Sequence record: NC_055721.1
Origin: Escherichia phage EcS1
DNA: 64,000 nucleotides
Direction: 5' to 3' (one strand)
Part shown: piece by piece, positions 1,616 through 57,210 of the stretch
Position numbering within the stretch: the first letter of the stretch is position 1
How the letters are laid out: each line of letters begins with the position of its first letter
Notes under the pieces: model-generated
What the model saw: only the letters and a program-made list of their open reading frames with translations
The model's database searches: none
Told to the model about the DNA's origin: nothing
Translations under genes and position numbers: made by a program

Positions 1616-1640
1616 GGGAGACTTCGGTCTCCCTTTCTTG
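1616..1640 (+). terminator. Rho-independent terminator after wac (GGGAGAC-TTCG-GTCTCCC + T-run)
   Basis: 7-bp GC stem, tetraloop, TTTCTT. Confidence 0.7.
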
Positions 1641-1672
1641 CATAAATACAGTTATTAATACAAGGACATCCT

Positions 1673-3411: not shown

Positions 3412-3425
3412 GGGGCTTCGGCCCC
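3412..3425 (+). other. Intercistronic hairpin GGGGC-TTCG-GCCCC just upstream of gene 15 RBS
   Basis: Read directly; no T-run. Confidence 0.6.
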
Positions 3426-4271: not shown

Positions 4272-6587
<2,316 letters not shown>

Positions 6588-8713: not shown

Positions 8714-9205
8714 ATGGAATTAACTGATATCACACGTGCCTTCGAATCCGGTGACTTCGCTCGTCCTAACTTGTTCGAAGTCGAAATCCCATTCCTTGGT
8801 AAAAACTTCAGCTTCAAATGTAAAGCTGCTCCGATGCCTGCAGGCATTGTAGATAAAGTCCCAGTCGGTTATATGAACCGTAAAATTAACGTTGCTGGCG
8901 ACCGTACCTTTGACGATTGGACTATCACCATTTATAATGATGACGCCCATAAAACACGTCAGTCTATTGTTGATTGGCAGAATATCTGTCATGGTATGAC
9001 TAACGAAATTACTGGTGGAGCTCCAGCAGAATATAAGAAAACTGCTATTGTTCGTCAATTCCATCGTGATGGCAAAACAGTAACTAAAGAACACACTATC
9101 ACTGGTCTGTGGCCAACTACTGTTGGTGAAGTACAGATGGACTGGGATTCAAATAACGAAGTAGAAACATTTGAAACTACTTTCGCTATCGATTGGTGGG
9201 AATAA
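8714..9205 (+). CDS. 19: Tail tube protein gp19
   Basis: 163 aa identical in length to T4 gp19; late promoter upstream, terminator downstream. Confidence 0.9.
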   Translation: MELTDITRAFESGDFARPNLFEVEIPFLGKNFSFKCKAAPMPAGIVDKVPVGYMNRKINVAGDRTFDDWTITIYNDDAHKTRQSIVDWQNICHGMTNEITGGAPAEYKKTAIVRQFHRDGKTVTKEHTITGLWPTTVGEVQMDWDSNNEVETFETTFAIDWWE

Positions 9206-9211
9206 ATAAGT

Positions 9212-9237
9212 ATGGAGCTTCGGCTCCATCAATTTTT
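9212..9237 (+). terminator. Terminator after gene 19 (ATGGAGC-TTCG-GCTCCAT + AATTTTT)
   Basis: Hairpin plus T-run. Confidence 0.6.
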
Positions 9238-13095: not shown

Positions 13096-14655
13096 ATGAA
13101 AAAGAACGCTCTCTTAGAAAAATGGCAGCCACTGCTGGAAAATGAAGAACTGCCAGAAATTGTTGGTGCTTCAAAACAAGCCATTATCGCTAAAATCCTG
13201 GAAAACCAGGAAAAAGACTTTACTACTTCCCCTGAATACAAAGATGAAAAAATCGCAGAAGCTTTTGGTTCGTTCCTGAGTGAAGCAGAAATTGGTGGTG
13301 ACCATGGTTATGATGCAACCAATATCGCTGCTGGTCAAACCTCTGGTGCTGTAACTCATATCGGTCCTGCTGTAATGGGTATGGTTCGTCGTTCAATCCC
13401 TAATCTGATTGCTTTCGATATCTGTGGTGTTCAGCCGATGAATAACCCTACTGGCCAGGTGTTCGCACTGCGTGCTGTGTATGGCAAAGATCCAATCGCA
13501 GCTGGCGCTAAAGAAGCATTCCACCCAATGTTCGCTCCAGATGCAATGTTCTCTGGTCAAGGTGCTGCTGAAGTATTCCCTAAAGCAACCGCTGGTAAAG
13601 TGTTAGCTGTTGGTGATATTGTAGTTCATGATTTCGAACAAACTGGTCGTGCTCATCTTCAAACTGTAGTTGCTTTCACTATTGATGCTGCTGCTACTGA
13701 TGCTGGTAAACTGGACGTAGAAATCACTAAGCAATTAGAAGCTGGTAAACTGGCTGAAATCGCTGAAGGTATGGCTACCTCTATCGCCGAATTGCAAGAA
13801 GGCTTTAACGGTTCTACTGATAATGCTTGGAACGAAATGGGCTTCCGTATCGATAAACAAGTTATCGAAGCTAAATCTCGTCAGCTTAAAGCTGCTTACT
13901 CTATCGAACTGGCTCAAGACTTACGTGCTGTTCACGGTATGGACGCTGATGCCGAACTGAGTGGTATTCTGGCTACAGAAATTATGCTGGAAATTAACCG
14001 TGAAGTAATCGACTGGATTAACTATTCAGCACAGGTTGGTAAAACCGGTATGACTCAAACTGTTGGTTCTAAAGCCGGTGTGTTTGACTTCCAAGACCCA
14101 ATCGATACGCGTGGTGCTCGTTGGGCTGGTGAAAGCTTTAAAGCTCTTCTGTTCCAAATCGATAAAGAATCAGCTGAAATCGCACGTCAAACCGGTCGTG
14201 GTGCAGGTAACTTCCTGATTGCTTCACGTAACGTTGTTAACGTACTGGCTGCTGTTGATACCAACGTATCTGTAGCTGCTCAAGGTCTGGGTCGTGGTTT
14301 CGAAACTGATACCACTAAAGCCGTATTTGCTGGTGTATTGGGTGGACGCTACCGTGTCTATATCGACCAGTATGCACGTCAAGACTACTTCACCATGGGT
14401 TATAAAGGTTCTAACGAAATGGATGCTGGTATCTACTACGCGCCATACGTTGCACTGACTCCGCTGCGTGGTTCCGATCCTAAGAACTTCCAACCAGTAA
14501 TGGGCTTCAAAACTCGTTATGGTATCGGTATTAACCCATTCGCTGACCCAGAAGCTCAGGCTCCTAAAGGTCGTGTCGTGTCTGGTATGCCTTCATTGGC
14601 TAACAGCATCGGTAAAAACGGTTACTTCCGTCGTGTGTTCGTTAAAGGTATCTAA
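13096..14655 (+). CDS. 23: Major capsid protein gp23
   Basis: 519 aa; long stretches identical to recalled T4 gp23 (e.g. IGGDHGY, NIAAGQTSGAVT, GPAVMGMVRR, YYAPYVALTPLRGSDPKNFQPVMGFKTRYGIGINPFA). Confidence 0.98.
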   Translation: MKKNALLEKWQPLLENEELPEIVGASKQAIIAKILENQEKDFTTSPEYKDEKIAEAFGSFLSEAEIGGDHGYDATNIAAGQTSGAVTHIGPAVMGMVRRSIPNLIAFDICGVQPMNNPTGQVFALRAVYGKDPIAAGAKEAFHPMFAPDAMFSGQGAAEVFPKATAGKVLAVGDIVVHDFEQTGRAHLQTVVAFTIDAAATDAGKLDVEITKQLEAGKLAEIAEGMATSIAELQEGFNGSTDNAWNEMGFRIDKQVIEAKSRQLKAAYSIELAQDLRAVHGMDADAELSGILATEIMLEINREVIDWINYSAQVGKTGMTQTVGSKAGVFDFQDPIDTRGARWAGESFKALLFQIDKESAEIARQTGRGAGNFLIASRNVVNVLAAVDTNVSVAAQGLGRGFETDTTKAVFAGVLGGRYRVYIDQYARQDYFTMGYKGSNEMDAGIYYAPYVALTPLRGSDPKNFQPVMGFKTRYGIGINPFADPEAQAPKGRVVSGMPSLANSIGKNGYFRRVFVKGI

Positions 14656-14671
14656 TACTTTAAAAAATTAT

Positions 14672-14697
14672 GGGAGACTTCGGTCTCCCATTTTTGT
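14672..14697 (+). terminator. Terminator after gene 23 (GGGAGAC-TTCG-GTCTCCC + ATTTTTGTTT)
   Basis: Hairpin plus T-run. Confidence 0.8.
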
Positions 14698-14708
14698 TTC
14701 TGAAGCTT

Positions 14709-14728
14709 TATAAATAAACTTATAAATA
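14709..14728 (+). promoter_or_regulatory. Tandem late promoters (two TATAAATA boxes) upstream of gene 24
   Basis: Boxes at 14709-14716 and 14721-14728. Confidence 0.6.
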
Positions 14729-14740
14729 AACTTATAAACA
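14709..14740 (+). repeat. Tandem 12-bp direct repeat (TATAAATAAACT x2.7) carrying two perfect TATAAATA boxes
   Basis: tataaataaact tataaataaact tataaaca read directly. Confidence 0.85.
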
Positions 14741-17485: not shown

Positions 17486-17726
17486 TGATATTTTTAACCA
17501 ATTTTTTGTGATGCAAAGTTGATGTAGTCATTCGCTTGCGATAAACAACTTTCTCGCGTGATTTGAATTTGATTTTAAGCTTTTCACCTTCAGCCCAATG
17601 TTTAGCAGCTTCTCGAGCTGAAATACCTAATTTTTCAGCTACATCACCAAATGTCATTTTTAAATCTTCAATCATTGTATAAATTTGAACAGCAATATTC
17701 ATAGTCACCTCATGTTTGTAGGTCAA
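17451..17726 (-). CDS. Hypothetical small protein with possible helix-turn-helix (24.3-like position)
   Basis: ORF; segment FGDVAEKLGISAREAAKHW resembles an HTH. Confidence 0.4.
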   Translation of the reverse strand: MTYKHEVTMNIAVQIYTMIEDLKMTFGDVAEKLGISAREAAKHWAEGEKLKIKFKSREKVVYRKRMTTSTLHHKKLVKNINAHATLSKTEA

Positions 17727-17786
17727 TTATACTCAATATTCTTATAGCATAAATACACTATATTTCATAATAAGAGGACACATCTT

Positions 17787-19124
17787 ATGGCTATTCCTTC
17801 AGTAACGATTACCCCAGTTAATGCCTCACCACAACTTGGTCAGACATTAACTATCAATTCAGTAGTTGAATTCGACCCAACAGATGTTTATACATCGTAT
17901 AAATGGGAACTTTCTGGCGCAGATACAGGCGTTACTACTGCAACATACACTAAAGCCAATATCACAAGTGCTGATGCTGGTTCTTACGTATTAAAAGTTA
18001 TGCATGGTGTTGATGCAGGTTCTGCAACTGAAACCGCTTCAAGTCCTGCCGTTATTACTACTTTACCGGCAACAACTGTTTCTATTGTTTCAACCACTAC
18101 TGACATTTATGTCGGTGATACATTAACTATTACTGCTACCCCAACTGGTGTTCCTTCTGGCGCAACAGTAGGCGCATATGAATGGTCTAAAGGTGGTACT
18201 GTAGTTTCGGGCCAAACTACTTCTACATTGACTAAAACAGTTGCGGCTGGCGATGCCGGTTCTTATACTGCTAAAGTATCTTATACTGTAACAGGCCAAG
18301 CACCAATTAAAACTGCTGCATCTAATGCTATCTCTGTTACTGTTGGACCTGCATTAGCATTTGCTACTAACCTTAATGCAACAGCTTCTGTATCAACAGG
18401 CCAAGCTCTTACCCTAACTGTAGCAGCATCCGGTGGTAAATCTCCATATACATATCAATGGAAGAAAGGAAGTGCTAACATAGGAACTAATTTAAATACA
18501 TTTATAGTTCCTTCTGCGGATTCAACAACTGCAGGAACTTATACTGTTGAAGTGACAGATGCTGCAAGTCATAAAATCACATCAGCTTCTTGTGTTGTTA
18601 CAGTGGTGCCTGCTTTATCTTTGAGCACCGATTTGTCTGCGACTAAATCAGTTGTTTCAGGTAAAACTCTTACTCTAACTATTGTTGCAGCTAATGGCAA
18701 AACGCCTTATACATATCAATGGAAAAGAGCTGGCGTTGAAATCCCAAGTGAAACAGCTGCTACATTTACTAAATCTGCGTCACCAGCGGACGCAGGTACG
18801 TATACATGTGAAGTGACAGATGATAATAACGATAAAATCACATCTAATACATGTGTTGTAACTGTTAGTTTATTGCCTGATTTAGAAGTTCTTTGGACTG
18901 TACATCCTATCCCATGGCGAGATACAAGTTTCACTCCGTTAGGTTATTGGGTATTAGATGAAATCTTACTTCAAAAAGCTGATGGCAAAGACTGGAAAAC
19001 TGATTACGCTACTTATCATTACACAGAAGAAGTTCAAACTATTTTAGAAGCATTTAATGCTATGGGTGAAGTTGAAATTCAAGACTCGCGTAATGGGTAT
19101 ATCCACAAAATGAGTTTAATTTAA
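17787..19124 (+). CDS. hoc: Hoc, highly immunogenic outer capsid protein (four Ig-like domains plus C-terminal capsid-binding domain)
   Basis: 445 aa; repeated Ig-like units with YxWxxxG and AGxYTCEVTD motifs; C-terminal HPIPWRDTSF...GKDWKTD...QDSRNGYIHK matches recalled T4 Hoc C-terminus. Confidence 0.85.
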   Translation: MAIPSVTITPVNASPQLGQTLTINSVVEFDPTDVYTSYKWELSGADTGVTTATYTKANITSADAGSYVLKVMHGVDAGSATETASSPAVITTLPATTVSIVSTTTDIYVGDTLTITATPTGVPSGATVGAYEWSKGGTVVSGQTTSTLTKTVAAGDAGSYTAKVSYTVTGQAPIKTAASNAISVTVGPALAFATNLNATASVSTGQALTLTVAASGGKSPYTYQWKKGSANIGTNLNTFIVPSADSTTAGTYTVEVTDAASHKITSASCVVTVVPALSLSTDLSATKSVVSGKTLTLTIVAANGKTPYTYQWKRAGVEIPSETAATFTKSASPADAGTYTCEVTDDNNDKITSNTCVVTVSLLPDLEVLWTVHPIPWRDTSFTPLGYWVLDEILLQKADGKDWKTDYATYHYTEEVQTILEAFNAMGEVEIQDSRNGYIHKMSLI

Positions 19125-19133
19125 GAAGGTTTT

Positions 19134-19631
19134 ATGGCTGATAAATGGACAACAGTTAACCCAATCCCGTGGCGAGATACAAGTTTTACGTATCTCCCTT
19201 ACTGGCTTTACGATATTATAGTTAAAGCCTTTAAAGACGGTAATGATTGGCGTGATTATTCTGAAACGAAATACAAATTAGAATTTGATACCTTGATTCA
19301 AGCATTCGAAGACTACGATGACATTTCAGTTATTGAATCACGTAATGGTAATCTACATGATTTATCTAATTTTACACCAGTAACAATCACAGCTAAATCA
19401 CCTGTGCCAGCTTTTAAAGTTGGTGACCCAGATTTAGTTATCAGCGCATTGTTCACAATTGATCCAGTTAAATTAGGGCAGCATGCAGTGTTATCTGTTG
19501 ATGCTTCTGGACATGCTGTATTAAGCAGCAGTGCTGTACCATCCGTTAAGGCTGTTTCGGCTGGGACAACTGTGGTGACATGTACTATTGGTGATGTATC
19601 AGAAACAATTAGTTTAGTTGTAACTGTATAG
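19134..19631 (+). CDS. Hoc-anchor-domain protein with C-terminal Big_2-like Ig domain (second putative capsid decoration protein)
   Basis: N-terminal 75 aa (NPIPWRDTSFTYLPYW...DGNDWRDY...ESRNGNLH) paralogous to the Hoc C-terminal domain of the preceding ORF; C-terminal VDASGHAVLSSS..VKAVSAGTTVVTCTIGDVSETISLVVTV has Big_2 pattern. Confidence 0.75.
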   Translation: MADKWTTVNPIPWRDTSFTYLPYWLYDIIVKAFKDGNDWRDYSETKYKLEFDTLIQAFEDYDDISVIESRNGNLHDLSNFTPVTITAKSPVPAFKVGDPDLVISALFTIDPVKLGQHAVLSVDASGHAVLSSSAVPSVKAVSAGTTVVTCTIGDVSETISLVVTV

Positions 19632-19632
19632 C

Positions 19633-19666
19633 AAAAAGGGAGAGCTTACGCTCTCCCTTTTTTATT
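19633..19666. terminator. Bidirectional terminator between convergent 19134..19631 and 19662..20375
   Basis: AAAAA-GGGAGAGC-TTAC-GCTCTCCC-TTTTTT. Confidence 0.8.
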
Positions 19667-20375
19667 TTATAACTTGGAAACTTGAATTACGCGTTTCACG
19701 AACGCGAACTAACCCATCACGCTTAATGTAATATAAAAGACTTAATATCGTATCAATACCGTAGTGGTGTGGGAACGAATGCGGATTCACTTTCCATTCT
19801 GGGTTCTTTGTAATCCATTCATAAATCCACCAAGGTAGAGTTACATAAGTTAATCCACGTCCAATTTGAGCTAATGTAGGACTGAAATCTTTTGGAAGCT
19901 CAAATACCTTTTCAGATTCAATAATCTGTTCAATAGCTTTTTCAAGAGCAGGGAGATCTTCTTCAGTCATAGGCTTGGTTGGGATAGTTTCAATGCCTTC
20001 GCTATGAATAACTGTAACAACTTCACCAATTGGAGCTTGAATAGAGTTAATGATTTTAGCTTCAACGGAAGGAGCTCCGATAGAATCGATCAAAAGTGTC
20101 TTGGCTTCATCTTTAGCTTCATCTTTAAAAACAGAAGTGCCAGTGAGTTCATCATCAGCTTGAATCAAATCAGAGATACTCATTCCGCCAATATCTTCAG
20201 GCATTGGTTCAGAAGCAAGTTTTTTCATTTCTTCTGACAAGTCAGCAACCATGTTATCAAATGACTTAGTTTTCTTTAAAGTTATGTTGAAAGTAAGAGC
20301 GTAGTCGGCCAGTTTTTCTTTGGCTTCTTTTTTGTCTAGCTCACGAAGTTCGTCAATATAAATTTTATCAATCAT
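19662..20375 (-). CDS. Hypothetical acidic protein in the position occupied by inh in T4 (identity not confirmed)
   Basis: 237 aa ORF; synteny between hoc and uvsW; sequence not recognised. Confidence 0.5.
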   Translation of the reverse strand: MIDKIYIDELRELDKKEAKEKLADYALTFNITLKKTKSFDNMVADLSEEMKKLASEPMPEDIGGMSISDLIQADDELTGTSVFKDEAKDEAKTLLIDSIGAPSVEAKIINSIQAPIGEVVTVIHSEGIETIPTKPMTEEDLPALEKAIEQIIESEKVFELPKDFSPTLAQIGRGLTYVTLPWWIYEWITKNPEWKVNPHSFPHHYGIDTILSLLYYIKRDGLVRVRETRNSSFQVIK

Positions 20376-30385: not shown

Positions 30386-30409
30386 AAAAAGGGAGAGCTA
30401 AGCTCTCCC
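30386..30409. terminator. Terminator hairpin between gene 54 and minus-strand ORF 30418..30729
   Basis: AAAAAAA-GGGAGAGCT-A-AGCTCTCCC. Confidence 0.65.
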
Positions 30410-30417
30410 TTCAGGGT

Positions 30418-32850: not shown

Positions 32851-32897
32851 AGTGTTACCTTTAGCAGTTTATTATATTCTAGTATTTATGCCCAAAA

Positions 32898-32913
32898 GGA
32901 GCCCGAAGGCTCC
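32898..32913 (-). other. Intercistronic hairpin GGAGCC-CGAA-GGCTCC upstream of alt
   Basis: Read directly. Confidence 0.55.
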
Positions 32914-33108
32914 TTAAGCTGCAGATATTGGCAATAACGTACGATAGACTTCAAAATACGGTGCTTTTTCATATGAGTCTAAAGTGTTATCTCTGAATTC
33001 ACGATAAGCAGTCATATCAAAAAAATCAAGAATAATTTGAGAACAAGAGGTGGAAACATCTCCACCTTCTTTACGAGCGATAACAACTGTTTCTAAGTAA
33101 GCTTTCAT
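32914..33108 (-). CDS. Hypothetical small protein
   Basis: 64 aa ORF overlapping ligase stop by 4 nt. Confidence 0.35.
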   Translation of the reverse strand: MKAYLETVVIARKEGGDVSTSCSQIILDFFDMTAYREFRDNTLDSYEKAPYFEVYRTLLPISAA

Positions 33109-36831: not shown

Positions 36832-36845
36832 GGGCCCGAAGGCCC
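36832..36845 (-). other. Intercistronic hairpin GGGCC-CGAA-GGCCC followed by GAGGA RBS module
   Basis: Same module as 37797-37813. Confidence 0.6.
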
Positions 36846-36853
36846 ATTTTAGA

Positions 36854-37216
36854 TTAGATAGTGAATTCAGATGAAACGATATCCCATAATGCTTCACGCT
36901 GCTCATCAGTAGTTTTCATACTTAACACATGACGCAACCATAACTTAACTAACATTTTGCGATTAGAACCGTTCCAAGATGGATGAGTACCTAAATCTCG
37001 AGTACGAACATCATCATGAAAACCAACTTTAATTACTGAACCTTTCAAAGAAACATCCAGCGTAATCCCGTTTTCGAAAGCAACATGAACATAGTTATCT
37101 TCCCAATACATGTTGATATCACACACTGTACCGTTTTCATGTTTCCATAAACATACAGTAGAAACATCCCATGCATTAGCTTTAACATATTTACGTTCGA
37201 AGTTTAAGTAGTTCAT
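36854..37216 (-). CDS. Hypothetical protein (about 120 aa; start reassigned downstream of promoter)
   Basis: ORF; promoter -10/-35 lie inside the track N-terminal extension. Confidence 0.5.
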   Translation of the reverse strand: MNYLNFERKYVKANAWDVSTVCLWKHENGTVCDINMYWEDNYVHVAFENGITLDVSLKGSVIKVGFHDDVRTRDLGTHPSWNGSNRKMLVKLWLRHVLSMKTTDEQREALWDIVSSEFTI

Positions 37217-37247
37217 TTTGTTATCCAAGTTTGCTGATTGAGTGTAC

Positions 37248-37276
37248 ATAATACCACACTCAATCAGCGTTGTAAA
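37248..37276 (-). promoter_or_regulatory. Sigma70-like early promoter (TTTACA-17-TATTAT) centred in a 13-bp perfect inverted repeat
   Basis: Hexamers on minus strand; IR arms 37233-37245 and 37256-37268. Confidence 0.45.
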
Positions 37277-37279
37277 CAC

Positions 37280-37783
37280 TTAGAACGAACTTTTTACTAC
37301 TTGTGGTTCTTTAACGAGTTTGAAACGAGAAATGCCTTTAAAAACAATAACTTCATCATAAGTATTTTCATGAAGCCATGCTGCAGCCCACTCTTCTGCT
37401 TGTTTTTCGCTCAAGTTTTTCGCACGAATCAAGAAATCGGTATCTTCTTCTCTAGCAACAAGACAACCATAGTCTAAATCTTCTAGAACTGGTTCAACTT
37501 CTTTTTCTGGCTCGTAGTCTTTAACTTCTGTGAAGTACTGGTATTCGTTTCCATAAATCCAGCAATCACCATACCCTTGTCTTGAGAACTGTCCAAGTTC
37601 ATCTAAACGATAAAGCTCTTTCTTACCATCAAAGCTGATTTTTAGAACATCAGTGTTATTAACTAGTTCAGTAATCATAAACGGTTTATTGCTGAGATAG
37701 TTTGCAACTGCAGTATTGATAGTAGGCGCTTCTTCAACAAATTCAGCCGCGTCAGCTAGTTTGTACCAGTGGTTTAATTCCAT
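37280..37783 (-). CDS. Hypothetical acidic protein
   Basis: 167 aa ORF with GAGGA RBS and upstream GC hairpin. Confidence 0.6.
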   Translation of the reverse strand: MELNHWYKLADAAEFVEEAPTINTAVANYLSNKPFMITELVNNTDVLKISFDGKKELYRLDELGQFSRQGYGDCWIYGNEYQYFTEVKDYEPEKEVEPVLEDLDYGCLVAREEDTDFLIRAKNLSEKQAEEWAAAWLHENTYDEVIVFKGISRFKLVKEPQVVKSSF

Positions 37784-37817: not shown

Positions 37818-38171
37818 TTAAGCGATTGTGGTCCAGTTATCTAAATTGATAACACCTTTATCTTTCATTTGTTGAATCAATGCTTCAGCACGAGTACGAC
37901 CATTTTCATACCATGTGCAATCTTCATCATCATAAGTCTCAGAACGAATGCGACCTAAGATGACAGTTTTCAGAACATATTCTTCACCAGTAAACCAGTT
38001 AGTCAAACGAATTTTCCAAGAGAAATCATCTGACTGACCATCAGGAGTCATGCAATAAACCAGTTCAAATTGCTCCATAGATAATCCCCACTGAAGTTCT
38101 TTAACTGATTGAGCTTTGTAGCCATCATGATCTTTGCATTTGATGAAAGCGTTCAGATTAATAGTTTTCAT
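37818..38171 (-). CDS. Hypothetical protein (117 aa; start at MKTINL)
   Basis: ORF; GGAGA RBS; promoter TTTACT-16-TAAGAT upstream. Confidence 0.55.
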   Translation of the reverse strand: MKTINLNAFIKCKDHDGYKAQSVKELQWGLSMEQFELVYCMTPDGQSDDFSWKIRLTNWFTGEEYVLKTVILGRIRSETYDDEDCTWYENGRTRAEALIQQMKDKGVINLDNWTTIA

Positions 38172-38200
38172 TTTATTCTCCATTTGTTGATTGAGTGTAC

Positions 38201-38228
38201 ATCTTAACACAATCCTAGGAGAAGTAAA
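38201..38228 (-). promoter_or_regulatory. Sigma70-like early promoter (TTTACT-16-TAAGAT) sharing 15-bp -10 region with 37236-37250
   Basis: tgattgagtgtacat present at 37236-37250 and 38188-38202. Confidence 0.4.
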
Positions 38229-38232
38229 CACC

Positions 38233-38427
38233 TTATTTTACATGACTGAATTCTACATCAGACCAGATGCCGAAAGGCGGAAGATTAGGTTCTTCTTTAA
38301 AGGCTAACTTTTTGACATCAGTCCAAGGCCAACAGCAAACTTCGTGCTCGTATAACCAGCATGTTCCTTGCAAAGGACTCTCAGGATGCATTTCTATAAT
38401 TTTATAAACCAAAGTTTTCTTGAACAT
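38233..38427 (-). CDS. Hypothetical small protein (64 aa; start at MFKKTL)
   Basis: ORF; track N-terminal extension spans a terminator hairpin so internal start preferred. Confidence 0.45.
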   Translation of the reverse strand: MFKKTLVYKIIEMHPESPLQGTCWLYEHEVCCWPWTDVKKLAFKEEPNLPPFGIWSDVEFSHVK

Positions 38428-38439
38428 ATTCACCTCATA

Positions 38440-38470
38440 CAGATACAAAAATGGGAGACCGAAGTCTCCC
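38440..38470 (-). terminator. Minus-strand terminator (GGGAGAC-TTCG-GTCTCCC + ATTTTTGT) after small basic ORF
   Basis: Same 32-nt module as at 56268-56297. Confidence 0.75.
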
Positions 38471-38475
38471 ATAAC

Positions 38476-38655
38476 TTATGCTACAGCTCGCGGCTTTCCA
38501 AAACGAGAAGCATCGTCGCGTAACACGGCTCGTGCACGACGCATAATCTTCTCAACTGTCTGATTAATACGCTTGTTCGACCCACGCTTATATTTCGCGC
38601 GTTTAGAGGTACCAACTACTTCTTTAACTGCTTGTTTCTTAGCTTGCTTAGCCAT
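38476..38655 (-). CDS. Small highly basic protein (59 aa, 30.9-like position)
   Basis: Hand-translated MAKQAKKQAVKEVVGTSKRAKYKRGSNKRINQTVEKIMRRARAVLRDDASRFGKPRAVA; stop 5 nt before strong terminator hairpin. Confidence 0.4.
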   Translation of the reverse strand: MAKQAKKQAVKEVVGTSKRAKYKRGSNKRINQTVEKIMRRARAVLRDDASRFGKPRAVA

Positions 38656-44995: not shown

Positions 44996-45024
44996 AATAA
45001 TATCCTCAAATTTAATTATCCCAT

Positions 45025-45040
45025 AGAGCCCGAAGGCTCT
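45025..45040 (-). other. Intercistronic hairpin AGAGCC-CGAA-GGCTCT upstream of ORF 44498..44995
   Basis: Read directly. Confidence 0.55.
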
Positions 45041-45197
45041 AAGATTTTAAAATCAGTTTAATAGCTTTATATGCAAAGATTAATATCATACCAAATGCTA
45101 TTAAGCCAGTCATACCACTAGCACAACCAACGCTGCAACGCATGCAAGCAGAGCAACAACCAATCCTGCACAAAACAATGTAGCGCCTAAAGTCATT

Positions 45198-46370: not shown

Positions 46371-46399
46371 ATCTTATCACAACAAAATGAGGATGTAAA
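46371..46399 (-). promoter_or_regulatory. Sigma70-like early promoter (TTTACA-17-TAAGAT) inside 15-bp inverted repeat upstream of alc-like gene
   Basis: IR arms 46348-46362 and 46380-46394; downstream arm contains the GAGGA RBS. Confidence 0.5.
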
Positions 46400-47572
46400 C
46401 TACTCTTGTTCGATTACAATTTCTTTCTTATATTCGTCTGGAACGAAGAACTTGTGATTCTTGTTAAAAGCTTCGTTAAGCTGTGGAATTAACTTATCTA
46501 GGTCTAAACCACCTGTGAACGCTTTCATCAGAATTGGGAACAGATAAGAACGGTCTGCATCTTTAAAGATTGTTTGAGCAGAGATAGCGAAGTCTTTACG
46601 GTCACGACCAGCTAGTTGCTTATAAGTTGTTTGAACTAAGTCTAATGCATGACGCAAGAACTCTAAATGAATAGTTTCAAACTTATCAATCTTAGTGATA
46701 GCCCATTCATCGCCTGCGAACATAGAACGAAGGTCATCAGAACCACCAGACACGACAGATTCGAAGAGAGCTTCGTTTTTAGTGATGGAATCTTTAGTAC
46801 GATGCAAAGCAACATACCAATCAGTTTTGAGCTTAAAGTTCAAACCGTTTTCCATTACAAAAACATAACCTTCTACACCTTCTTTGGCGCGAATGCCAGG
46901 CACAAATCGTTCATCGGCAGGAACATTAAATGCTTCTACCAAATGAGGACGAAGCATTGCATCTTTAAACAATTCTTCATATGGAACATATTCACCAGTC
47001 TTATTTTCACGAACATTCAGAAGAATCAGGTCACGTTTACTATAAGCCAGAACGATACGGTTATCTGGTGCAACGTATTCCATGTTACAAGTGAAGCCAT
47101 CTTTAGTAAGTTGAGTCACACGTTTCAAGAATTTTTCATAACGTGGACCATTGATAACTTGTAGTGCTGCATAAGCTTGTTCAGAAGAAATAGAAGCCTT
47201 AGACTTCAAGAACAGTTGGTCGTTATCTACAAAGCTAGAGATTAGAGAACCATCAGCCTTATCCATCATCAATTTGATTTTAGTAAGGTCCAAGTTCATG
47301 GTAAATGGAGTTTCATCTAAGTTAAAGAATTTTTCCATCGGACGAGCTGCAATACGAGTAGGCTTACCATCGACCATTTCAAACATAATGCCGCGGCACT
47401 CTAGAGCGTCAGGCAGAAGCCAATCAGAGTAAGATGCATAGTTATAACTGAAGATACGATACTCACCACCAAACGGCGTCTGGTAGTCACGGAAATAGAA
47501 TTTAGACTGGTCTTTTGGGTCAGTCAATTTCATCAGGTTTTTGTACAAATCATGTTCTTGTTTAGTAATCAT
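46400..47572 (-). CDS. rnlA: RNA ligase 1
   Basis: 390 aa; YRIFSYNYASYSDWLLPDALECRGIMFEM, EKFFNL, KADGSL, RIVLAY, ILLNVRENKTGEY match recalled T4 Rnl1. Confidence 0.95.
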   Translation of the reverse strand: MITKQEHDLYKNLMKLTDPKDQSKFYFRDYQTPFGGEYRIFSYNYASYSDWLLPDALECRGIMFEMVDGKPTRIAARPMEKFFNLDETPFTMNLDLTKIKLMMDKADGSLISSFVDNDQLFLKSKASISSEQAYAALQVINGPRYEKFLKRVTQLTKDGFTCNMEYVAPDNRIVLAYSKRDLILLNVRENKTGEYVPYEELFKDAMLRPHLVEAFNVPADERFVPGIRAKEGVEGYVFVMENGLNFKLKTDWYVALHRTKDSITKNEALFESVVSGGSDDLRSMFAGDEWAITKIDKFETIHLEFLRHALDLVQTTYKQLAGRDRKDFAISAQTIFKDADRSYLFPILMKAFTGGLDLDKLIPQLNEAFNKNHKFFVPDEYKKEIVIEQE

Positions 47573-47991: not shown

Positions 47992-48005
47992 GGGGCCGAA
48001 GCCCC
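47992..48005 (-). other. Intercistronic hairpin GGGGC-CGAA-GCCCC between nrdB and denA
   Basis: Read directly; TTT follows on minus strand. Confidence 0.6.
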
Positions 48006-49593: not shown

Positions 49594-51855
49594 TCAAAGT
49601 TTACAAGAAGAGCAATCTTCTTCTTTTGGAACTTCGATTTCATAATCATCAGTACCAGAACCATCACGAGTATTATGATAGTAAGCTGTCTTACCACCGA
49701 AGTACCACAGATGAAGCATATCATCCATCATGACTGACATCGGAACCTTACCTTTAGGGTAGTTCTGTGGGTCATAGTACATGTTAGTAGAAATAGACTG
49801 ACATACGAATTTCTGCATAATTGCTACTTGATTCAAGTAACCTTTATTACCAGATTTCGCTAACTTCCAAGCATAATCATAAAGATCAACATTAGTATCA
49901 ACATTAGGCACAACTTGGTTAAAGGAACCTTCTTTCGATTCTTTAACACTTACAGGCCCACGTGGCGGCTCGATACCATTAGTGCTATTTGATACCTGGC
50001 TCGAAGATTCACAAGGCATGAGCGCGGATAAGGTACTGTTACGGATACCGTAACTTCTGAGGTCTTCCCGCAACTGTTCCCAGTCACAAACGTACGATGG
50101 GGCTGCGAGTTGGTCAATCTTTTTATTGTACCAGTCGATAGGTAACTCGCCTCTAGACCAACGAGTGTCTGAATAATACTCGCAATGGCCTTTTTCTTTC
50201 GCTAATTTGACTGATGCTCTGATGAGTGCATATTGAAGTCTTTCCATCATTTCGTGAGTTAAATCGTTTGCATCATTATATGATGCAAAGTTATCAGCTA
50301 ACCAAGCAGCATAGTTCGTGATACCAACACCGAGTGCACGACGTTTTTTAGCTTTCAAAGCTTCCGGGACAGGATAACCTTGATAGTCTAATAAATTATC
50401 TAAAGCACGAACTTGTACTTCGGCTAATTCGTTAATTTCGTCTTGGTTCTGCCAATCGAAGTTACCGAGTACATAAGCAGATAAAGTGCAAAGTGCGATT
50501 TCTGGGTCTTCACCACCAACGTCTTTAGTAGGAAGCGCGATTTCACAGCACAAGTTTGATTGCTTAACCGTAGCCACATCACGAATAAAAGGACCATACT
50601 CACCGACGTTATCTACAAAGTAAGGGTAAATACGAGCCGTACCTGAACGTTCAGTAAAGAACAATTCGAAGAGCTCGCGAGCTTTAATTCGTTTCTTACG
50701 AACCGTAGGATCTTTTTCTAAAGCTTCATAGAAATTACGGAACTTCAGAGGGTCAGCAAAATACGCTTCGTAAAGTTCGCCTTTCATGATGTCAGGACTG
50801 AACAACGTGATGTAATCATTTTTAACCAAACGTTCAAACATCAGGTCATTAATCTGAACACCATAGTCTAGATGACGAATACGGTTTTCATCTACACCTT
50901 TGTTGTTCTTCAGAACTAACAGGTTTTCCACTTCAAGATGCCATATCGGATAATACAACGTTGCTGCACCACCACGTACGCCACCTTGTGAACAACTCTT
51001 CACTGCGGTTTGGAAATGTTTCCAGAATGGAATCACCCCAGTATGTTTGACTTCACCATGACCAATCTTAGAACCTTCAGCACGAATCATACCACCATTA
51101 ATACCAATACCAGCACGTTTACTGATATAACGAATAATAGCTTCTGCACCTTTGTTAATTGATGTCAGTGAATCACCACTTTCAATAACAACACAAGAAC
51201 TAAACTGACGAGTTGGAGTACGAACACCTGCCATAATAGGAGTAGGCAACGAAACCTTACGAGTTGAAACAGCATCATAAAAACGAACTACGTTCTTAAT
51301 ACGATGTTCACCATCATCTTGGTGCAAACACATACCGATAAGCATGAATGCAAATTGAGGCGTTTCATAAATCTTGCCAGTTGAACGATCTTTGACTAGG
51401 TATTTTTCGATTAACTGCATCGTACCAGCATAAGTGAATTCAAAGTCACGGTCGTGTTTGATTTGAGATTCAAACAACTGGATTTCTTCTGCAGACCATT
51501 TGCTTAGGATTTCGGTGTCATAAAGACCTGCGTTAACTACTGAAGAGATGTGGTCGATAAACCGAGGTGGTTCGAATTGATTGAAAACATCTTTACGAAG
51601 ACCAAACATAGCTAGATTACTTGCTACATATTGATAATCTGGTTCGTCAACTGTAATACGGTTAGCAGCAACTTTAATAACTGCTTTATGAATTTCTTTA
51701 GTGGTCATTCCATCACGCAGATGACTTTTAACTTCTTCATAAAGGTCATAAGGGTTAACGGCTATAGATGTACTTGCGCACGACCATTCAAGGACTTGGA
51801 TGATTTTACTTGGTGTAAAATCTTGACTAACGCCTGAACTTTTTATTACTTGCAT
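49594..51855 (-). CDS. nrdA: Ribonucleotide reductase large subunit (start reassigned to MQVIKSSGVSQDF)
   Basis: 753 aa from internal ATG matching recalled T4 NrdA N-terminus; C-terminal CxxC redox tail (CSSCKL). Confidence 0.95.
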   Translation of the reverse strand: MQVIKSSGVSQDFTPSKIIQVLEWSCASTSIAVNPYDLYEEVKSHLRDGMTTKEIHKAVIKVAANRITVDEPDYQYVASNLAMFGLRKDVFNQFEPPRFIDHISSVVNAGLYDTEILSKWSAEEIQLFESQIKHDRDFEFTYAGTMQLIEKYLVKDRSTGKIYETPQFAFMLIGMCLHQDDGEHRIKNVVRFYDAVSTRKVSLPTPIMAGVRTPTRQFSSCVVIESGDSLTSINKGAEAIIRYISKRAGIGINGGMIRAEGSKIGHGEVKHTGVIPFWKHFQTAVKSCSQGGVRGGAATLYYPIWHLEVENLLVLKNNKGVDENRIRHLDYGVQINDLMFERLVKNDYITLFSPDIMKGELYEAYFADPLKFRNFYEALEKDPTVRKKRIKARELFELFFTERSGTARIYPYFVDNVGEYGPFIRDVATVKQSNLCCEIALPTKDVGGEDPEIALCTLSAYVLGNFDWQNQDEINELAEVQVRALDNLLDYQGYPVPEALKAKKRRALGVGITNYAAWLADNFASYNDANDLTHEMMERLQYALIRASVKLAKEKGHCEYYSDTRWSRGELPIDWYNKKIDQLAAPSYVCDWEQLREDLRSYGIRNSTLSALMPCESSSQVSNSTNGIEPPRGPVSVKESKEGSFNQVVPNVDTNVDLYDYAWKLAKSGNKGYLNQVAIMQKFVCQSISTNMYYDPQNYPKGKVPMSVMMDDMLHLWYFGGKTAYYHNTRDGSGTDDYEIEVPKEEDCSSCKL

Positions 51856-51874
51856 TTTTGTCCCATATTGTGAA

Positions 51875-51882
51875 TATAAATA
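51875..51882 (+). promoter_or_regulatory. Late promoter TATAAATA upstream of I-TevI-like HEG
   Basis: Perfect box 26 nt before ATG, GAGGAG RBS between. Confidence 0.55.
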
Positions 51883-51907
51883 CCAAAATATAGAGGAGTT
51901 ACCCCAC

Positions 51908-52666
51908 ATGAAATCAGGCATTTATAGAATAATTAACATTAATAATAACAAATCTTACGTTGGCAGCACTATAGACTTCCAAGCAAGATGGAAACGACAT
52001 TTTTCGGATTTGAAGAACGGGTGTCATTCTTCAATCAAACTCCAACGTTCATACGATAAACATGGTAAAGATTCATTCGTTTGTGAAATAGTTGAGCAGA
52101 CTCCATATGATGAATCTATAATTTCATTAGAAGATTATTATATCATCTATTTTGATTCAAAACAAAACGGATATAATATTGCTAACGCAGCATTTGGCGA
52201 CACTTTATCGCACCACCCTAACAAAGAAGAAATATTTAAGAAAATAAGCATTTCTCTTAGAGAAAACAATGAAAAACTTTCTGAAGAAGAAAGGAAAAAT
52301 AAATTTGGAAGTAAAAGTTGTAAGAAAGGTAAAAGCTACGAAGAATTTTACGGAGCTAAAAAGGCTCAAGAAATAGGTCTTAAACTTTCAGAAAGCAATT
52401 ATAATAGACAAATGTCTGGAACTAATAATCCATTCTTTGGTAAGACACATAGTGACGAAGTTAGAAAGAGAATTTCTGCCACACAGAAAGGACGTAAGAA
52501 ACCTCATGTTAAATTAAGTATAGAAGGAACTATTTATCAATCAGTGGCAGAAGCAATGAAAGCCACAAATCTTTCTCGTAAAGTTATAGAAAGACGTTGT
52601 GGCTCTGAATTATTCATAGATTGGTTTAGACTTCATATAGCCATTTTACCTTTAATTGGAGGGTGA
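51908..52666 (+). CDS. Free-standing GIY-YIG homing endonuclease, I-TevI-like
   Basis: 252 aa; KSGIYRI..N.KSYVGST.DF.ARWKRHFSDLKNGCHSSIKLQRS, NGYNIANAAFGDT.SHHP.KEEI and C-terminal HTH-like IEGTIYQSVAEAMKATNLSRKVIERR align with recalled I-TevI; TATAAATA and GAGGAG upstream. Confidence 0.9.
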   Translation: MKSGIYRIININNNKSYVGSTIDFQARWKRHFSDLKNGCHSSIKLQRSYDKHGKDSFVCEIVEQTPYDESIISLEDYYIIYFDSKQNGYNIANAAFGDTLSHHPNKEEIFKKISISLRENNEKLSEEERKNKFGSKSCKKGKSYEEFYGAKKAQEIGLKLSESNYNRQMSGTNNPFFGKTHSDEVRKRISATQKGRKKPHVKLSIEGTIYQSVAEAMKATNLSRKVIERRCGSELFIDWFRLHIAILPLIGG

Positions 52667-55976: not shown

Positions 55977-56207
55977 TTATTCACCTGATTCAACAATTGT
56001 ATCAAAAAGTTCTTCAATCATTTCTGGGTACATGCCAACACAGTACTCACGGTTTAGATAAAGATTGATAGTACGACGGTCACCTTCAATAGTGATTTCC
56101 ATACTGTAACCATTAGTAACACATTCAACTTCTTTAAGATTGTACTTATCAAGACAAGTCTCTTTGAAATAAGCATAATCGTAGATATCAATAGTTACTT
56201 TAGCCAT
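55977..56207 (-). CDS. Hypothetical small protein
   Basis: 76 aa ORF with own promoter and leader hairpin. Confidence 0.5.
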   Translation of the reverse strand: MAKVTIDIYDYAYFKETCLDKYNLKEVECVTNGYSMEITIEGDRRTINLYLNREYCVGMYPEMIEELFDTIVESGE

Positions 56208-56237: not shown

Positions 56238-56266
56238 ATCTTACCACATCTAAATGAGGTTGTAAA
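56238..56266 (-). promoter_or_regulatory. Sigma70-like early promoter (TTTACA-17-TAAGAT) immediately after gene 32 terminator
   Basis: Hexamers read on minus strand; homologous to 46371-46399 unit. Confidence 0.5.
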
Positions 56267-56267
56267 C

Positions 56268-56297
56268 AGATACAAAAATGGGAGACCGAAGTCTCCC
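56268..56297 (-). terminator. Gene 32 terminator (GGGAGAC-TTCG-GTCTCCC + ATTTTTGT)
   Basis: Hairpin 7 nt after gene 32 stop, T-run follows. Confidence 0.8.
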
Positions 56298-56304
56298 ATC
56301 ATTA

Positions 56305-57210
56305 TTACATACCTGCTAACAGAGCATCTAAGTCGTCTTCATCAGCACCACTTGGTGTGGTATCACGAGATTGGACATTAGTACGAGCTGTATCAGTAAA
56401 GTCTTTCATATCTTGGTCGAAGGCATCAAGTGAATCACCGATTGCATCAGCCTGAGCAGAAGCTTTAGCGGCAGCACCACCAAGTGCAGCGATACCAAAT
56501 ACTTGTTCAAATTTCTTCTGGTTTACATCCAGAGTTTTGAACTTATCTTTAGAAGTCAGTTCGCTCAAATCAGACATATTGTCATTGAGGAATGTCTGGA
56601 ACGTTTCGTCGTTGATATTAGGGATTTCAGATTGACCTAAGAATTTAGAGTCATCATAGTTCTTGAAATCACCGACTTTCTTAGTTTTCAGTACGAAGTT
56701 CGCACCATCGAAAGGACATGTCACATCGACTGGAGTTTCACCGATAGAGGTATCAACTTCAACCATTGCTGTGATTTTGTCGTATACTTTCTGACCAAAA
56801 CGGAACTTGAATACTTTACCTTCTGTTTCTGGGTTAGCTTTATCTTGAACAACCAAGATGTTAGCCCAGTATGAAGTCTTACGCTTCAGGAGTTGGTATT
56901 CAGGCTTATTCGTATTGTACGAATCATTTTTAGACAGATATTGGCAAACTGGACAGTTATCAAAGTCACCATGAGTAGAAGTACAGTTTTCGATGTACCA
57001 TTTACCATTTTTCTTGAAACCGTGATTCACCAGCTTAGCAAACGGAAGACCTTCATCACCTTTACCTGGAAGGAAACGAATAACAGCCATGCCATTACCG
57101 TTGTCGTCTTTCAATTTCCATTCATTCTTATCGTCAGAAGAGAAACCTTGACCACCTTTCAGAGAAGCCAGTTGTGCTTGAAGAGCTGCAGGATCTTTAC
57201 GCTTGAACAT
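56305..57210 (-). CDS. 32: Single-stranded DNA-binding protein gp32
   Basis: 301 aa (same as T4); [67 protein letters not shown] match recalled T4 gp32. Confidence 0.97.

What the first reader, a model, noticed from the sequence alone, without database searches (positions are those of the whole stretch)
38440..38470. Four copies of the same GGGAGAC-TTCG-GTCTCCC terminator, two in identical 32-nt terminator modules that run into early promoters
The hairpin occurs at 1616-1633 and 14672-14689 (+ strand sense) and at 38453-38470 and 56280-56297 (minus strand sense). The two minus-strand copies share an identical 32-nt block (gggagacttcggtctcccatttttgtatctgt). At 56268-56297 this block is fused directly to a TTTACA-17-TAAGAT promoter (56238-56266) homologous to the one upstream of the alc-like gene. 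This looks like a portable terminator-promoter cassette that insulates early transcription units.
Basis: seen in the sequence. Interest (0 to 1): 0.4.

Follow-up and report, generated by a model that had tools for sequence, protein, structure and literature searches.

The report
Reused UUCG terminator hairpin in T4-like phage
A T4-like phage ends four of its transcription units with the same very stable RNA hairpin, one copy joined directly to an early promoter; this is a local example of terminator and terminator-promoter (PeSL) cassettes already described in T4-type phages, so it is real but ordinary.

Summary
GGGAGAC-TTCG-GTCTCCC occurs exactly four times in the window, against 0 expected by chance. 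Two minus-strand copies share an identical 34-nt block, 2 nt longer than reported.

The window is 100% identical to part of a 175-kb T4-like phage genome (IMG/VR UViG 2974737508), about 85% identical to Winklervirus X20 and CHI14. The copies lie just after the stop codons of wac, gene 23, a 30.9-like ORF and gene 32. Each reads UUCG in the sense strand. All but the wac copy are followed by a run of five U residues (AUUUUUGU).

They are best read as intrinsic terminators of the C(UUCG)G tetraloop type. T4, RB69, CC31, X20 and Virsaitis27 have hairpins at the same positions, sometimes with other stems that stay fully paired.

Only the gene 32 copy abuts an early promoter (GTTTACA-17-TGGTAAGAT), as at T4's own gene 32 / frd.3 junction. 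That matches the published PeSL cassette. The other identical copy runs into a ribosome-binding site and a 64-aa ORF; its promoter lies about 210 nt further on. The two late-region copies precede late-promoter motifs.

Only the ~34-nt terminator module is repeated, not a terminator-promoter unit. Swapped stems between conserved flanks suggest the module is copied between sites. Verdict: new member of a known kind, low interest.

The parts
1616..1633 (+). Copy 1: 7-bp-stem UUCG hairpin, 8 nt after the fibritin (wac, 43-1608) stop codon. The U-tract is weak (UUUCUUGC).
   Evidence: (MFE -13.2 kcal/mol).
1641..1648 (+). Late-promoter-like CATAAATA between copy 1 and gene 13 (ATG at 1673).
   Evidence: The hairpin plus this region is 81% identical over 64 nt to the Virsaitis27 hairpin and late-promoter region after gp35.
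14670..14702 (+). Copy 2: 9-bp-stem hairpin ATGGGAGAC-UUCG-GUCUCCCAU plus tail UUUUGUUUCUG, after the major capsid gene 23 (13096-14655).
   Evidence: (z = -4.45). The same hairpin follows gene 23 in X20, Virsaitis27 and JS98.
14709..14728 (+). Two tandem TATAAATA late-promoter motifs (14709-14716 and 14721-14728) upstream of gene 24 (ATG at 14756).
38439..38472 (-). Copy 3: 34-nt terminator module (hairpin plus AUUUUUGUAUCUGU), 3 nt after the 30.9-like ORF (38476-38655).
   Evidence: The orthologous hairpin is present in X20, Virsaitis27, T4 and CC31.
38233..38436 (-). SD GAGGTGA (38430-38436) plus a 64-aa ORF (38233-38427) wedged between the copy 3 terminator and the next early promoter.
   Evidence: It is absent from X20, Virsaitis27 and T4. 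A homologue sits at the same position in CC31.
38201..38229 (-). Early promoter GTTTACT-N16-TAAGAT for the 30.8-like gene. In Virsaitis27 it lies about 14 nt after the copy 3 hairpin; here it is displaced about 210 nt by the ORF.
56266..56299 (-). Copy 4: 34-nt terminator module, 5 nt after gene 32 (ssDNA-binding protein, 56305-57210).
   Evidence: (MFE -23.3 kcal/mol, z = -5.89). The same hairpin follows gene 32 in X20, Virsaitis27 and RB69.
56238..56267 (-). Early promoter GTTTACA-N17 (with extended -10 TG)-TAAGAT. Its first 2 nt overlap the module. It drives a 76-aa ORF (55977-56207).
46371..46400 (-). Paralogous early promoter upstream of the alc homologue. It matches the copy 4 promoter at 24 of 29 positions and has no hairpin within 70 nt upstream.
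   Evidence: The alc assignment comes from synteny with Virsaitis27.
47992..48005 (-). Sister UUCG hairpin GGGGC-UUCG-GCCCC between nrdB and denA. Virsaitis27 has GGGAGAC at this orthologous site.
3412..3425 (+). Sister UUCG hairpin (GGGGC stem) after gene 14.
9212..9229 (+). Sister UUCG hairpin (AUGGAGC stem) after gene 19.
32896..32915 (-). Sister UUCG hairpin (AAGGAGCC stem) followed by GCATAAATA, upstream of the alt homologue.
45024..45041 (-). Sister UUCG hairpin (UAGAGCC stem). Homology with Virsaitis27 breaks at its edge.
36832..36845 (-). Sister UUCG hairpin (GGGCC stem) with no U-tract.

Best explanation
The four copies are Rho-independent (intrinsic) transcription terminators of the C(UUCG)G tetraloop type, in a T4-like phage related to Winklervirus. 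Each forms a 7-9 bp G+C-rich hairpin right after a stop codon. In three of the four a U-rich tract follows. This releases host RNA polymerase and leaves a 3' hairpin that should protect the upstream mRNA (wac, gene 23, 30.9, gene 32) from 3' exonucleases.

Transcription then restarts at whatever promoter follows: late TATAAATA-type motifs after wac and gene 23, and a T4-type early promoter directly after the gene 32 copy. That last arrangement is a PeSL (promoter-early stem-loop) cassette. The terminator's T-rich tail sits where the AT-rich or UP region of the promoter would be.

The positions are ancestral in T4-type phages. The specific 34-nt sequence is shared because the module has been copied between terminator sites by short-patch recombination or conversion. 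The gene 32 copy is the likely source of the 30.9-site copy.

Shown: sequence, placement, orientation, conservation and allele swaps. Inferred: termination itself, mRNA stabilisation, UP-element use, and the copying mechanism and its direction.
For: Anatomy:
- Perfect stems, a UUCG loop and a run of five U (AUUUUUGU) at copies 2-4.
- Folding gives MFE -13 to -23 kcal/mol and z down to -5.9.

Placement and strand:
- All 10 perfect UUCG hairpins in the window lie in gaps between ORFs on the same strand as the hairpin (one overlaps the annotated 5' end of the next ORF), eight of them within 80 nt downstream of a same-strand ORF.
- All 10 read UUCG, never CGAA, in the sense strand.
- TTCG/CGAA is by far the commonest loop of >=7-bp hairpins in the window, Virsaitis27 and T4.

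Orthology:
- The same 22-mer follows gene 23, gene 32 and the 30.9-like ORF in X20 and Virsaitis27.
- RB69 has GGGAGAC-UUCG plus GTATCTGT plus a GTTTACT promoter after gene 32.
- T4 has a hairpin, T-tract and GTTTACA promoter after gene 32 and after 30.9.
- CC31 has a hairpin after 30.9.

Structure is preserved through sequence change:
- At the 30.9 site, 5 of 9 pairs change on both sides and 97.8% of cells are paired; slid controls give <=60%.

Promoter class:
- Ten aligned promoters share invariant GTTTAC...TG.TA...T.
- This matches the UP/-35/TGn/-10 description of T4 early promoters (PMC2988021) and the PeSL consensus TTTACW-N17-TAYWAT (PMC4122927).
- PeSL stem-loops were reported as effective terminators (abstract of PMC2839356).

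Copying:
- The identity covers non-stem bases (AT..AT and GTATCTGT).
- At the 30.9 site T4 and CC31 carry GGACTCC, while this lineage carries the gene 32-type module including its tail, between invariant flanks.
- The wac and nrdB sites differ in stem between the window and Virsaitis27 while the flanks are conserved.
Against: - No transcript data exist for this phage, so termination efficiency is unknown.
- Copy 1 has a poor U-tract (UUUCUUGC).
- Copy 3 is followed immediately by a conserved ORF with no promoter of its own, in this phage and in CC31. Substantial read-through must occur there, so the hairpin may act as much as an RNA-stability or attenuation element as a terminator.
- The copying inference rests on a handful of genomes. 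Strong selection for one optimal sequence could mimic it in part.
- The 18-mer itself recurs in many unrelated phages, so the stem alone can arise convergently.
Confidence: 0.85

Rival explanations
1. The whole terminator-plus-early-promoter unit is a portable cassette. It inserts as one piece and insulates early transcription units.
For: - Copy 4 is hairpin plus promoter with no spacer.
- The orthologue of copy 3 in Virsaitis27 and X20 is hairpin plus 14 nt plus GTTTACT.
- From hairpin through -35 and leader, that element resembles the RB69 gene 32 element.
- Homology with Virsaitis27 breaks exactly at module and promoter edges: 38437/38232, 45042, 45610, 56270.
- PeSL mini-circles and shuffling are documented in RB49 and phi1 (PMC2839356).
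Against: - Within this genome the repeat stops at the first 2 nt of the -35 element.
- Five of the six early promoters have no hairpin within 70 nt upstream.
- Two of the four copies are in late operons.
- The terminator and promoter positions after gene 32 and 30.9 are shared with T4, so they are inherited rather than newly inserted.
- Breakpoints fall in intergenic DNA anyway, which confounds their coincidence with the elements.
Confidence: 0.35
2. Independent convergence: the four copies arose separately because GGGAGAC-UUCG-GUCUCCC is simply a very good terminator hairpin.
For: - The exact 18-mer occurs in >=120 IMG/VR stretches. Most have unrelated flanks and come from unrelated phages, and most are followed by a T-run.
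- Same-composition control stems are about as common, at 90 and 108 stretches.
- Copy 1 shares only the 18-mer plus a few upstream bases.
Against: - Copies 2-4 share 33-34 nt, including non-pairing bases and the tail.
- Four of 10 UUCG hairpins in the window and 5 of 26 in Virsaitis27 carry one stem out of many equally usable ones.
- The 22-mer is largely confined to T4-like genomes of about 170-185 kb.
Confidence: 0.1
3. The hairpin is mainly a sequence-specific recognition site for a phage or host protein, on RNA or as a DNA cruciform. Candidates are a recombinase, an RNA-binding regulator or a nuclease. Termination would be secondary.
For: - The sequence, not just the structure, is perfectly conserved across paralogous copies and between genomes that are about 15-25% divergent elsewhere.
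- Arbiol et al. speculated that the conserved PeSL stem could be the target of a DNA-binding protein (PMC2839356).
- The stem contains GGAG, the RegB cleavage motif (PMC1702504).
Against: - The 10 of 10 sense-strand UUCG bias argues for an RNA-level role, not a DNA cruciform.
- Orthologous sites tolerate completely different stems.
- GGAG is buried in the stem here.
- No Rfam family matches.
- The 18-mer is not enriched over control stems across viruses.
Confidence: 0.08
4. It is a miniature transposable element (REP-like or MITE-like) that spreads by transposition.
For: A short palindromic unit occurs in several intergenic copies.
Against: - There is no conserved sequence beyond about 34 nt, no terminal repeats other than the stem, and no target-site duplications in the flanks.
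- Copies sit at positions that already carry a hairpin in distant relatives.
- The copy number is low: three copies of the 22-mer in the whole 175-kb genome.
Confidence: 0.02

Closest known systems
PeSL (promoter-early stem-loop) cassettes of T4-type phages (Arbiol et al. 2010, PMC2839356; Comeau et al. 2014, PMC4122927)
   Same: - Copy 4 is a stem-loop terminator immediately upstream of a sigma70-like early promoter of the T4/PST type (TTTACW-N17-TAYWAT), followed by an SD and the start codon of a small ORF.
- It lies in a variable region where close relatives differ by indels that start at the element.
- The stem-loop and promoter sequences recur within the genome.
   Different: - Only one complete PeSL is formed by these four copies.
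- The conserved repeat is the stem-loop plus U-tract alone.
- The stem is GGGAGAC with a UUCG loop, not the G(n)-loop-C(n) of RB49 or the AGNA-loop-TCNT of PST.
- Two copies serve late operons with late-promoter motifs, an arrangement the PeSL papers do not describe.
- One copy has an ORF between stem-loop and promoter.
- Mini-circle formation was not tested.
C(UUCG)G tetraloop hairpins in T4 intercistronic regions and terminators (Tuerk et al. 1988 PNAS; cited from my own knowledge, paper not retrievable here)
   Same: - A UUCG loop closed by a C-G pair, intergenic and in sense orientation.
- The first 150 kb of T4 carries 18 such perfect hairpins, most of them between genes, including after gene 23, after 30.9 and after soc.
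   Different: - The first 150 kb of T4 has no GGGAGAC stem.
- T4's gene 32 terminator uses a CUAGA loop.
- Here one stem is reused at 4 of 10 sites.
Canonical Rho-independent terminators of E. coli and its phages
   Same: G+C-rich hairpin followed by a U-tract, located after stop codons. A-tracts upstream of copies 1 and 2 give some bidirectional character.
   Different: Nothing essential differs. Efficiency is unmeasured, and copy 1 has an interrupted U-tract.

Membership tests
Intrinsic (Rho-independent) terminator | Stable G+C-rich stem-loop in the transcript | tested here: met
   7-9 bp perfect stems with 5 G-C pairs. MFE -13 to -23 kcal/mol, z -2.1 to -5.9.
Intrinsic (Rho-independent) terminator | U-rich tract immediately 3' of the stem | tested here: met
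   AUUUUUGU at copies 2-4. Copy 1 is weaker (UUUCUUGC).
Intrinsic (Rho-independent) terminator | Located downstream of a gene, in the sense orientation | tested here: met
   Each copy is 3-15 nt after a same-strand stop codon. All 10 UUCG hairpins are in sense orientation.
Intrinsic (Rho-independent) terminator | RNA 3' ends generated at the U-tract in vivo or in vitro | not testable with these tools
   No transcript data are available for this phage.
C(UUCG)G tetraloop hairpin | UUCG loop closed by a C-G pair | tested here: met
   ...GAC-UUCG-GUC... in all four copies.
PeSL cassette | [quoted passage not shown] | tested here: inconclusive
   Met for copy 4, with 10 nt between stem and -35. 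Not met in this genome for copy 3, where the promoter is about 210 nt away; it is met in Virsaitis27, X20 and T4. Not met for copies 1 and 2, which lie in late operons.
PeSL cassette | Promoter matching the T4/PST-type consensus TTTACW-N17-TAYWAT with an AT-rich upstream region | tested here: met
   GTTTACA-N17-TAAGAT with an extended -10 TG. The -10 departs from TAYWAT at two positions. The upstream region is the terminator's T-rich tail (consensus from PMC4122927).
PeSL cassette | Shine-Dalgarno sequence and start codon of a downstream (often small or ORFan) gene at the 3' end | tested here: met
   GAGGAAAACAAAATG begins a 76-aa ORF of unknown function (phrog_1764).
PeSL cassette | Association with indels or replacements between closely related genomes | tested here: met
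   Virsaitis27 and X20 carry an 18-bp inverted repeat downstream of the gene 32 hairpin that the window lacks; in Virsaitis27 a promoter and an extra ORF follow it. A 200-bp ORF is present or absent between the stem-loop and promoter at the 30.9 site.
PeSL cassette | Recombination between elements (mini-circles, chimeric elements) | not testable with these tools
   Needs inverse PCR or deep sequencing of infected cells. Only indirect evidence was found, namely stem alleles swapped between conserved flanks.
REP / MITE-like mobile repeat | Conserved unit with terminal repeats and target-site duplications, at many insertion sites that are empty in relatives | tested here: not met
   Flanks are unrelated and show no duplications. 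The sites are occupied by hairpins in distant relatives. The genome has three copies of the 22-mer.

The most novel reading that the evidence does not exclude
The ~34-nt module (hairpin plus U-rich tail) behaves as a small regulatory allele that overwrites resident terminators by short-patch, non-reciprocal copying. It would have moved from the gene 32 site to the 30.9 site in the Winklervirus-like lineage, and on or off the wac and nrdB sites since then. Terminators in these phages would then evolve in concert rather than site by site. The module's tail would also double as the AT-rich upstream element of the next promoter.
Probability: 0.35. Interest if true: 0.35.

Novelty: new member of a known kind. 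Interest (0 to 1): 0.2.

Why it matters
The finding gives a clean, annotatable set of transcription-unit boundaries for an otherwise uncharacterised T4-like genome. It extends the published PeSL picture to a Winklervirus-like phage.

It adds two small points of wider interest. First, the same terminator allele serves both early and late operons. Second, orthologous terminator sites swap whole stem alleles between conserved flanks, which hints at concerted evolution of terminators. For phage engineering, the 34-nt module is a candidate compact terminator part. None of this changes current understanding of T4-type gene regulation.

Tried and rejected
1. Is the 18-mer a globally privileged sequence? 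It has >=120 IMG/VR hits. Two same-composition control stems gave 90 and 108 hits, so the idea was rejected.
2. MITE/REP-like element: rejected. There is no flank similarity or duplication and the sites are ancestral.
3. Known RNA family: Rfam gathering scan of the whole window found nothing. No tRNAs were found either.
4. Does T4 carry the same hairpin, so that experimental data could be transferred? No GGGAGAC stem occurs in the first 150 kb of T4. Only positional orthology holds.
5. Are there more copies elsewhere in the source genome? The 22-mer scan shows only the three window copies in the 175-kb contig. Virsaitis27 has one after gp35, for example.
6. Are there close relatives with the same junctions? 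Both junction sequences are unique to the source contig in IMG/VR.
7. Literature: the T4 genome review (PMC150520) is not held. A search for UUCG terminator papers on T4 gave nothing directly useful.
8. Breakpoint enrichment at elements was noted, but I do not treat it as a test. Breakpoints and elements are both confined to intergenic DNA.

Full report
**Observation.** The 18-mer GGGAGACTTCGGTCTCCC occurs exactly four times in the window, at the stated coordinates and strands. There are no further sites at up to 2 mismatches, and none in 100 shuffles. In register, the four copies share little beyond the hairpin.
- Copies 3 and 4 are identical over 34 nt: ATGGGAGACTTCGGTCTCCCATTTTTGTATCTGT at 38439-38472 and 56266-56299.
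- Copy 2 matches this block at 32 of its first 33 positions.
- Copy 1 shares only the 18-mer and a few upstream bases.
- All other flanking sequence is unrelated.

The promoter TTTACA-17-TAAGAT at 56266..56238 is real and carries an extended -10 TG. It matches the promoter upstream of the alc homologue at 24 of 29 positions.

**What the window is.** It is 100% identical to IMG/VR contig IMGVR_UViG_2974737508_000001, which is 175,437 bp long. This is a T4-like phage whose nearest deposited relatives are Winklervirus phages: Serratia phages X20 and CHI14 and Erwinia phage Virsaitis27. Megablast gives about 85% identity in the structural genes; blastn against Virsaitis27 gives 67-89% per aligned block. 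Gene order follows T4.

**Where the copies sit.** Each copy lies 3-15 nt after a stop codon on its own strand.
- Copy 1: after fibritin (wac), before gene 13.
- Copy 2: after the major capsid gene 23, before gene 24.
- Copy 3: after a 59-aa ORF that corresponds to T4 30.9.
- Copy 4: after gene 32, the ssDNA-binding protein.

The window contains 10 perfect UUCG-loop hairpins with stems of at least 5 bp.
- All 10 lie in gaps between ORFs on the same strand as the hairpin (one overlaps the annotated 5' end of the next ORF), and eight follow a same-strand ORF within 80 nt.
- All 10 read UUCG rather than CGAA in the sense strand.
- TTCG/CGAA is by far the most frequent loop among hairpins of at least 7 bp in the window, in Virsaitis27 and in T4.

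This strand bias points to a function in RNA, not in duplex DNA. Predicted hairpin energies are -13 to -23 kcal/mol. Copies 2-4 are followed by AUUUUUGU, and copy 1 by the weaker UUUCUUGC.

**What follows each copy.**
- Copy 1 is followed by CATAAATA (1641-1648).
- Copy 2 is followed by two tandem TATAAATA late-promoter motifs (14709-14728).
- Copy 4 overlaps by 2 nt a T4-type early promoter, GTTTACA-N17-TGGTAAGAT. That promoter is followed by an SD and a 76-aa ORF.
- Copy 3 is followed directly by GAGGTGA-N6-ATG and a 64-aa ORF. The next early promoter (38229..38201) comes only after that ORF.

A scan of the window found six promoters of the class GTTTAC[AT]-N16/17-TAnnnT (five with TG just upstream of the -10 hexamer), all on the minus strand. 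Only the copy 4 promoter has a hairpin within 70 nt upstream. Aligned with the corresponding promoters of Virsaitis27, RB69 and T4, they share invariant GTTTAC...TG.TA...T. This fits the published description of T4 early promoters as UP/-35/TGn/-10 promoters (PMC2988021).

**Relatives.**
- X20 and Virsaitis27 carry the identical 22-mer ATGGGAGACTTCGGTCTCCCAT after gene 23, after gene 32 and after the 30.9-like ORF.
- RB69 has GGGAGAC-UUCG-GUCUCCC, then UUUUGAGUAUCUGU, an A-tract and a GTTTACT promoter after gene 32.
- T4 has a different hairpin after gene 32 (GGGGACC-CUAGA-GGUCCCC), followed by a T-tract and the GTTTACA promoter of frd.3.
- T4 also has AGGACUCC-UUCG-GGAGUCCU plus a GTTTACA promoter after 30.9.

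So the terminator followed by an early promoter is ancestral at these two junctions.

The stems, however, are not tied to sites.
- At the 30.9 site the upstream flank AGCATAAGTT is invariant in five phages. T4 and CC31 carry a GGACUCC stem there, while this lineage carries the gene 32-type module, tail GTATCTGT included. Five of nine pairs change on both sides and 97.8% of cells remain paired.
- After wac, the window has GGGAGAC where X20 and Virsaitis27 have AAAGGGAGC.
- After nrdB, the window has GGGGC where Virsaitis27 has GGGAGAC, with conserved flanks.

Virsaitis27 has 26 UUCG hairpins in all, five of them with the GGGAGAC stem.

Most have unrelated flanks, and most are followed directly by a T-run; only nine of the 120 share sequence with the window or Virsaitis27. 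Two control stems of identical base composition gave 90 and 108 stretches. The stem alone is therefore a generic, convergently reachable terminator design.

The longer 22-mer is a different matter. It occurs in only 29 stretches, largely from T4-like genomes of about 170-185 kb. It occurs exactly three times in the source genome, all inside the window. Identity over 33-34 nt that includes non-pairing bases is not explained by convergence. I infer that the module was copied between sites. The gene 32 site is the likely source for the 30.9 site, because RB69 shares the GTATCTGT tail at gene 32.

**Local rearrangements at the elements.**
- At copy 3, Virsaitis27 and X20 have the hairpin, 14 nt, then GTGTTTACT (a complete PeSL). 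The window has a 204-bp segment containing the 64-aa ORF inserted exactly between the module and the -35 element.
- CC31 (Karamvirus) has the same layout as the window, with a 34%-identical homologue of that ORF and a different stem. This ORF lies after the hairpin with no promoter of its own in two genera, so read-through must be appreciable.
- At copy 4, Virsaitis27 and X20 have an 18-bp perfect inverted repeat after the hairpin; in Virsaitis27 a promoter and an extra ORF follow it, with a second, similar promoter before the homologue of the window's 76-aa ORF. In the window the module is fused directly to that ORF's promoter.

**Comparison with what is known.** Composite terminator-promoter elements, in which the stem-loop sits just upstream of a sigma70-like early promoter, were described as PeSLs in RB49 and phi1 (PMC2839356). 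They were later described in PST/T4 and nt-1/KVP40 (PMC4122927). The T4/PST promoter consensus is TTTACW-N17-TAYWAT. PeSLs occur in variable regions and are associated with indels, and the RB49/phi1 paper's abstract describes their stem-loops as effective terminators.
- Copy 4 meets the sequence-level definition.
- Copy 3 meets it in sister phages but is split in this genome.
- Copies 1 and 2 are ordinary late-operon terminators followed by late-promoter motifs.

UUCG tetraloop hairpins in T4 intercistronic regions are classical knowledge (Tuerk et al. 1988, cited from memory). The first 150 kb of T4 contains 18 perfect ones, most of them between genes.

**Verdict.** The repeated unit, though, is the terminator alone, and only one copy abuts an early promoter. 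The arrangement is inherited from the T4-type ancestor, and the concept is already published. I rate it a new member of a known kind, with low interest (0.2). The least ordinary aspect is the swapping of whole stem alleles between conserved flanks, which suggests concerted evolution of terminators and could be tested across the subfamily.

Noticed in passing
window 38233-38427 (-): A 64-aa ORF with a strong SD lies between a terminator hairpin and the next early promoter. It has no promoter of its own. A 34%-identical homologue sits at the same position in Karamvirus CC31 and relatives. It is absent from T4, X20 and Virsaitis27. Its expression must depend on read-through of the hairpin.
   Followed up: partly
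window 17787-19124 (+) and 19134-19631 (+): Two adjacent Hoc-like head-decoration ORFs (445 and 165 aa) lie on the + strand. X20, Virsaitis27 and T4 have a single hoc on the - strand at this place, and there is no nucleotide homology to Virsaitis27 over 17720-19684.
   Followed up: partly
window 19633-19662 (+) and 30388-30412 (-): A second two-copy hairpin family with a nearly identical stem, GGGAGAGC...GCTCTCCC (loops TTAC and TTA). Both copies are flanked by A- and T-tracts at convergent gene ends, so they look like bidirectional terminators.
   Followed up: no
window 51908-52666 (+): A GIY-YIG-type homing endonuclease ORF (phrog_314, E = 9e-43) on the opposite strand, within the nrdA-td region. 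It coincides with a gap in homology to Virsaitis27 (51855-52631).
   Followed up: partly
window 14709-14740 (+): A 12-nt tandem repeat TATAAATAAACT (about 2.5 copies) that duplicates the late-promoter motif upstream of gene 24.
   Followed up: no
window 37200-37290 and 38155-38242 (-): Two early promoters share a nearly identical initial transcribed leader, GTACACTCAATCA(G/A)CAAA. This suggests repeated promoter-leader cassettes that are independent of the hairpins.
   Followed up: no
Virsaitis27 149107-149050 (L005 approx. 9051-9108) and X20 L002 approx. 4700-4760: An 18-bp perfect inverted repeat (GGCACATATATGTTACAT ... ATGTAACATATATGTGCC) lies immediately downstream of the gene 32 terminator in both relatives. 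It is absent from the window.
   Followed up: no
IMG/VR loci L011-L130: The exact 18-mer hairpin recurs in at least 120 viral contigs. Most are unrelated and environmental, and in most the hairpin is followed directly by a T-run. Some flank families recur several times.
   Followed up: partly
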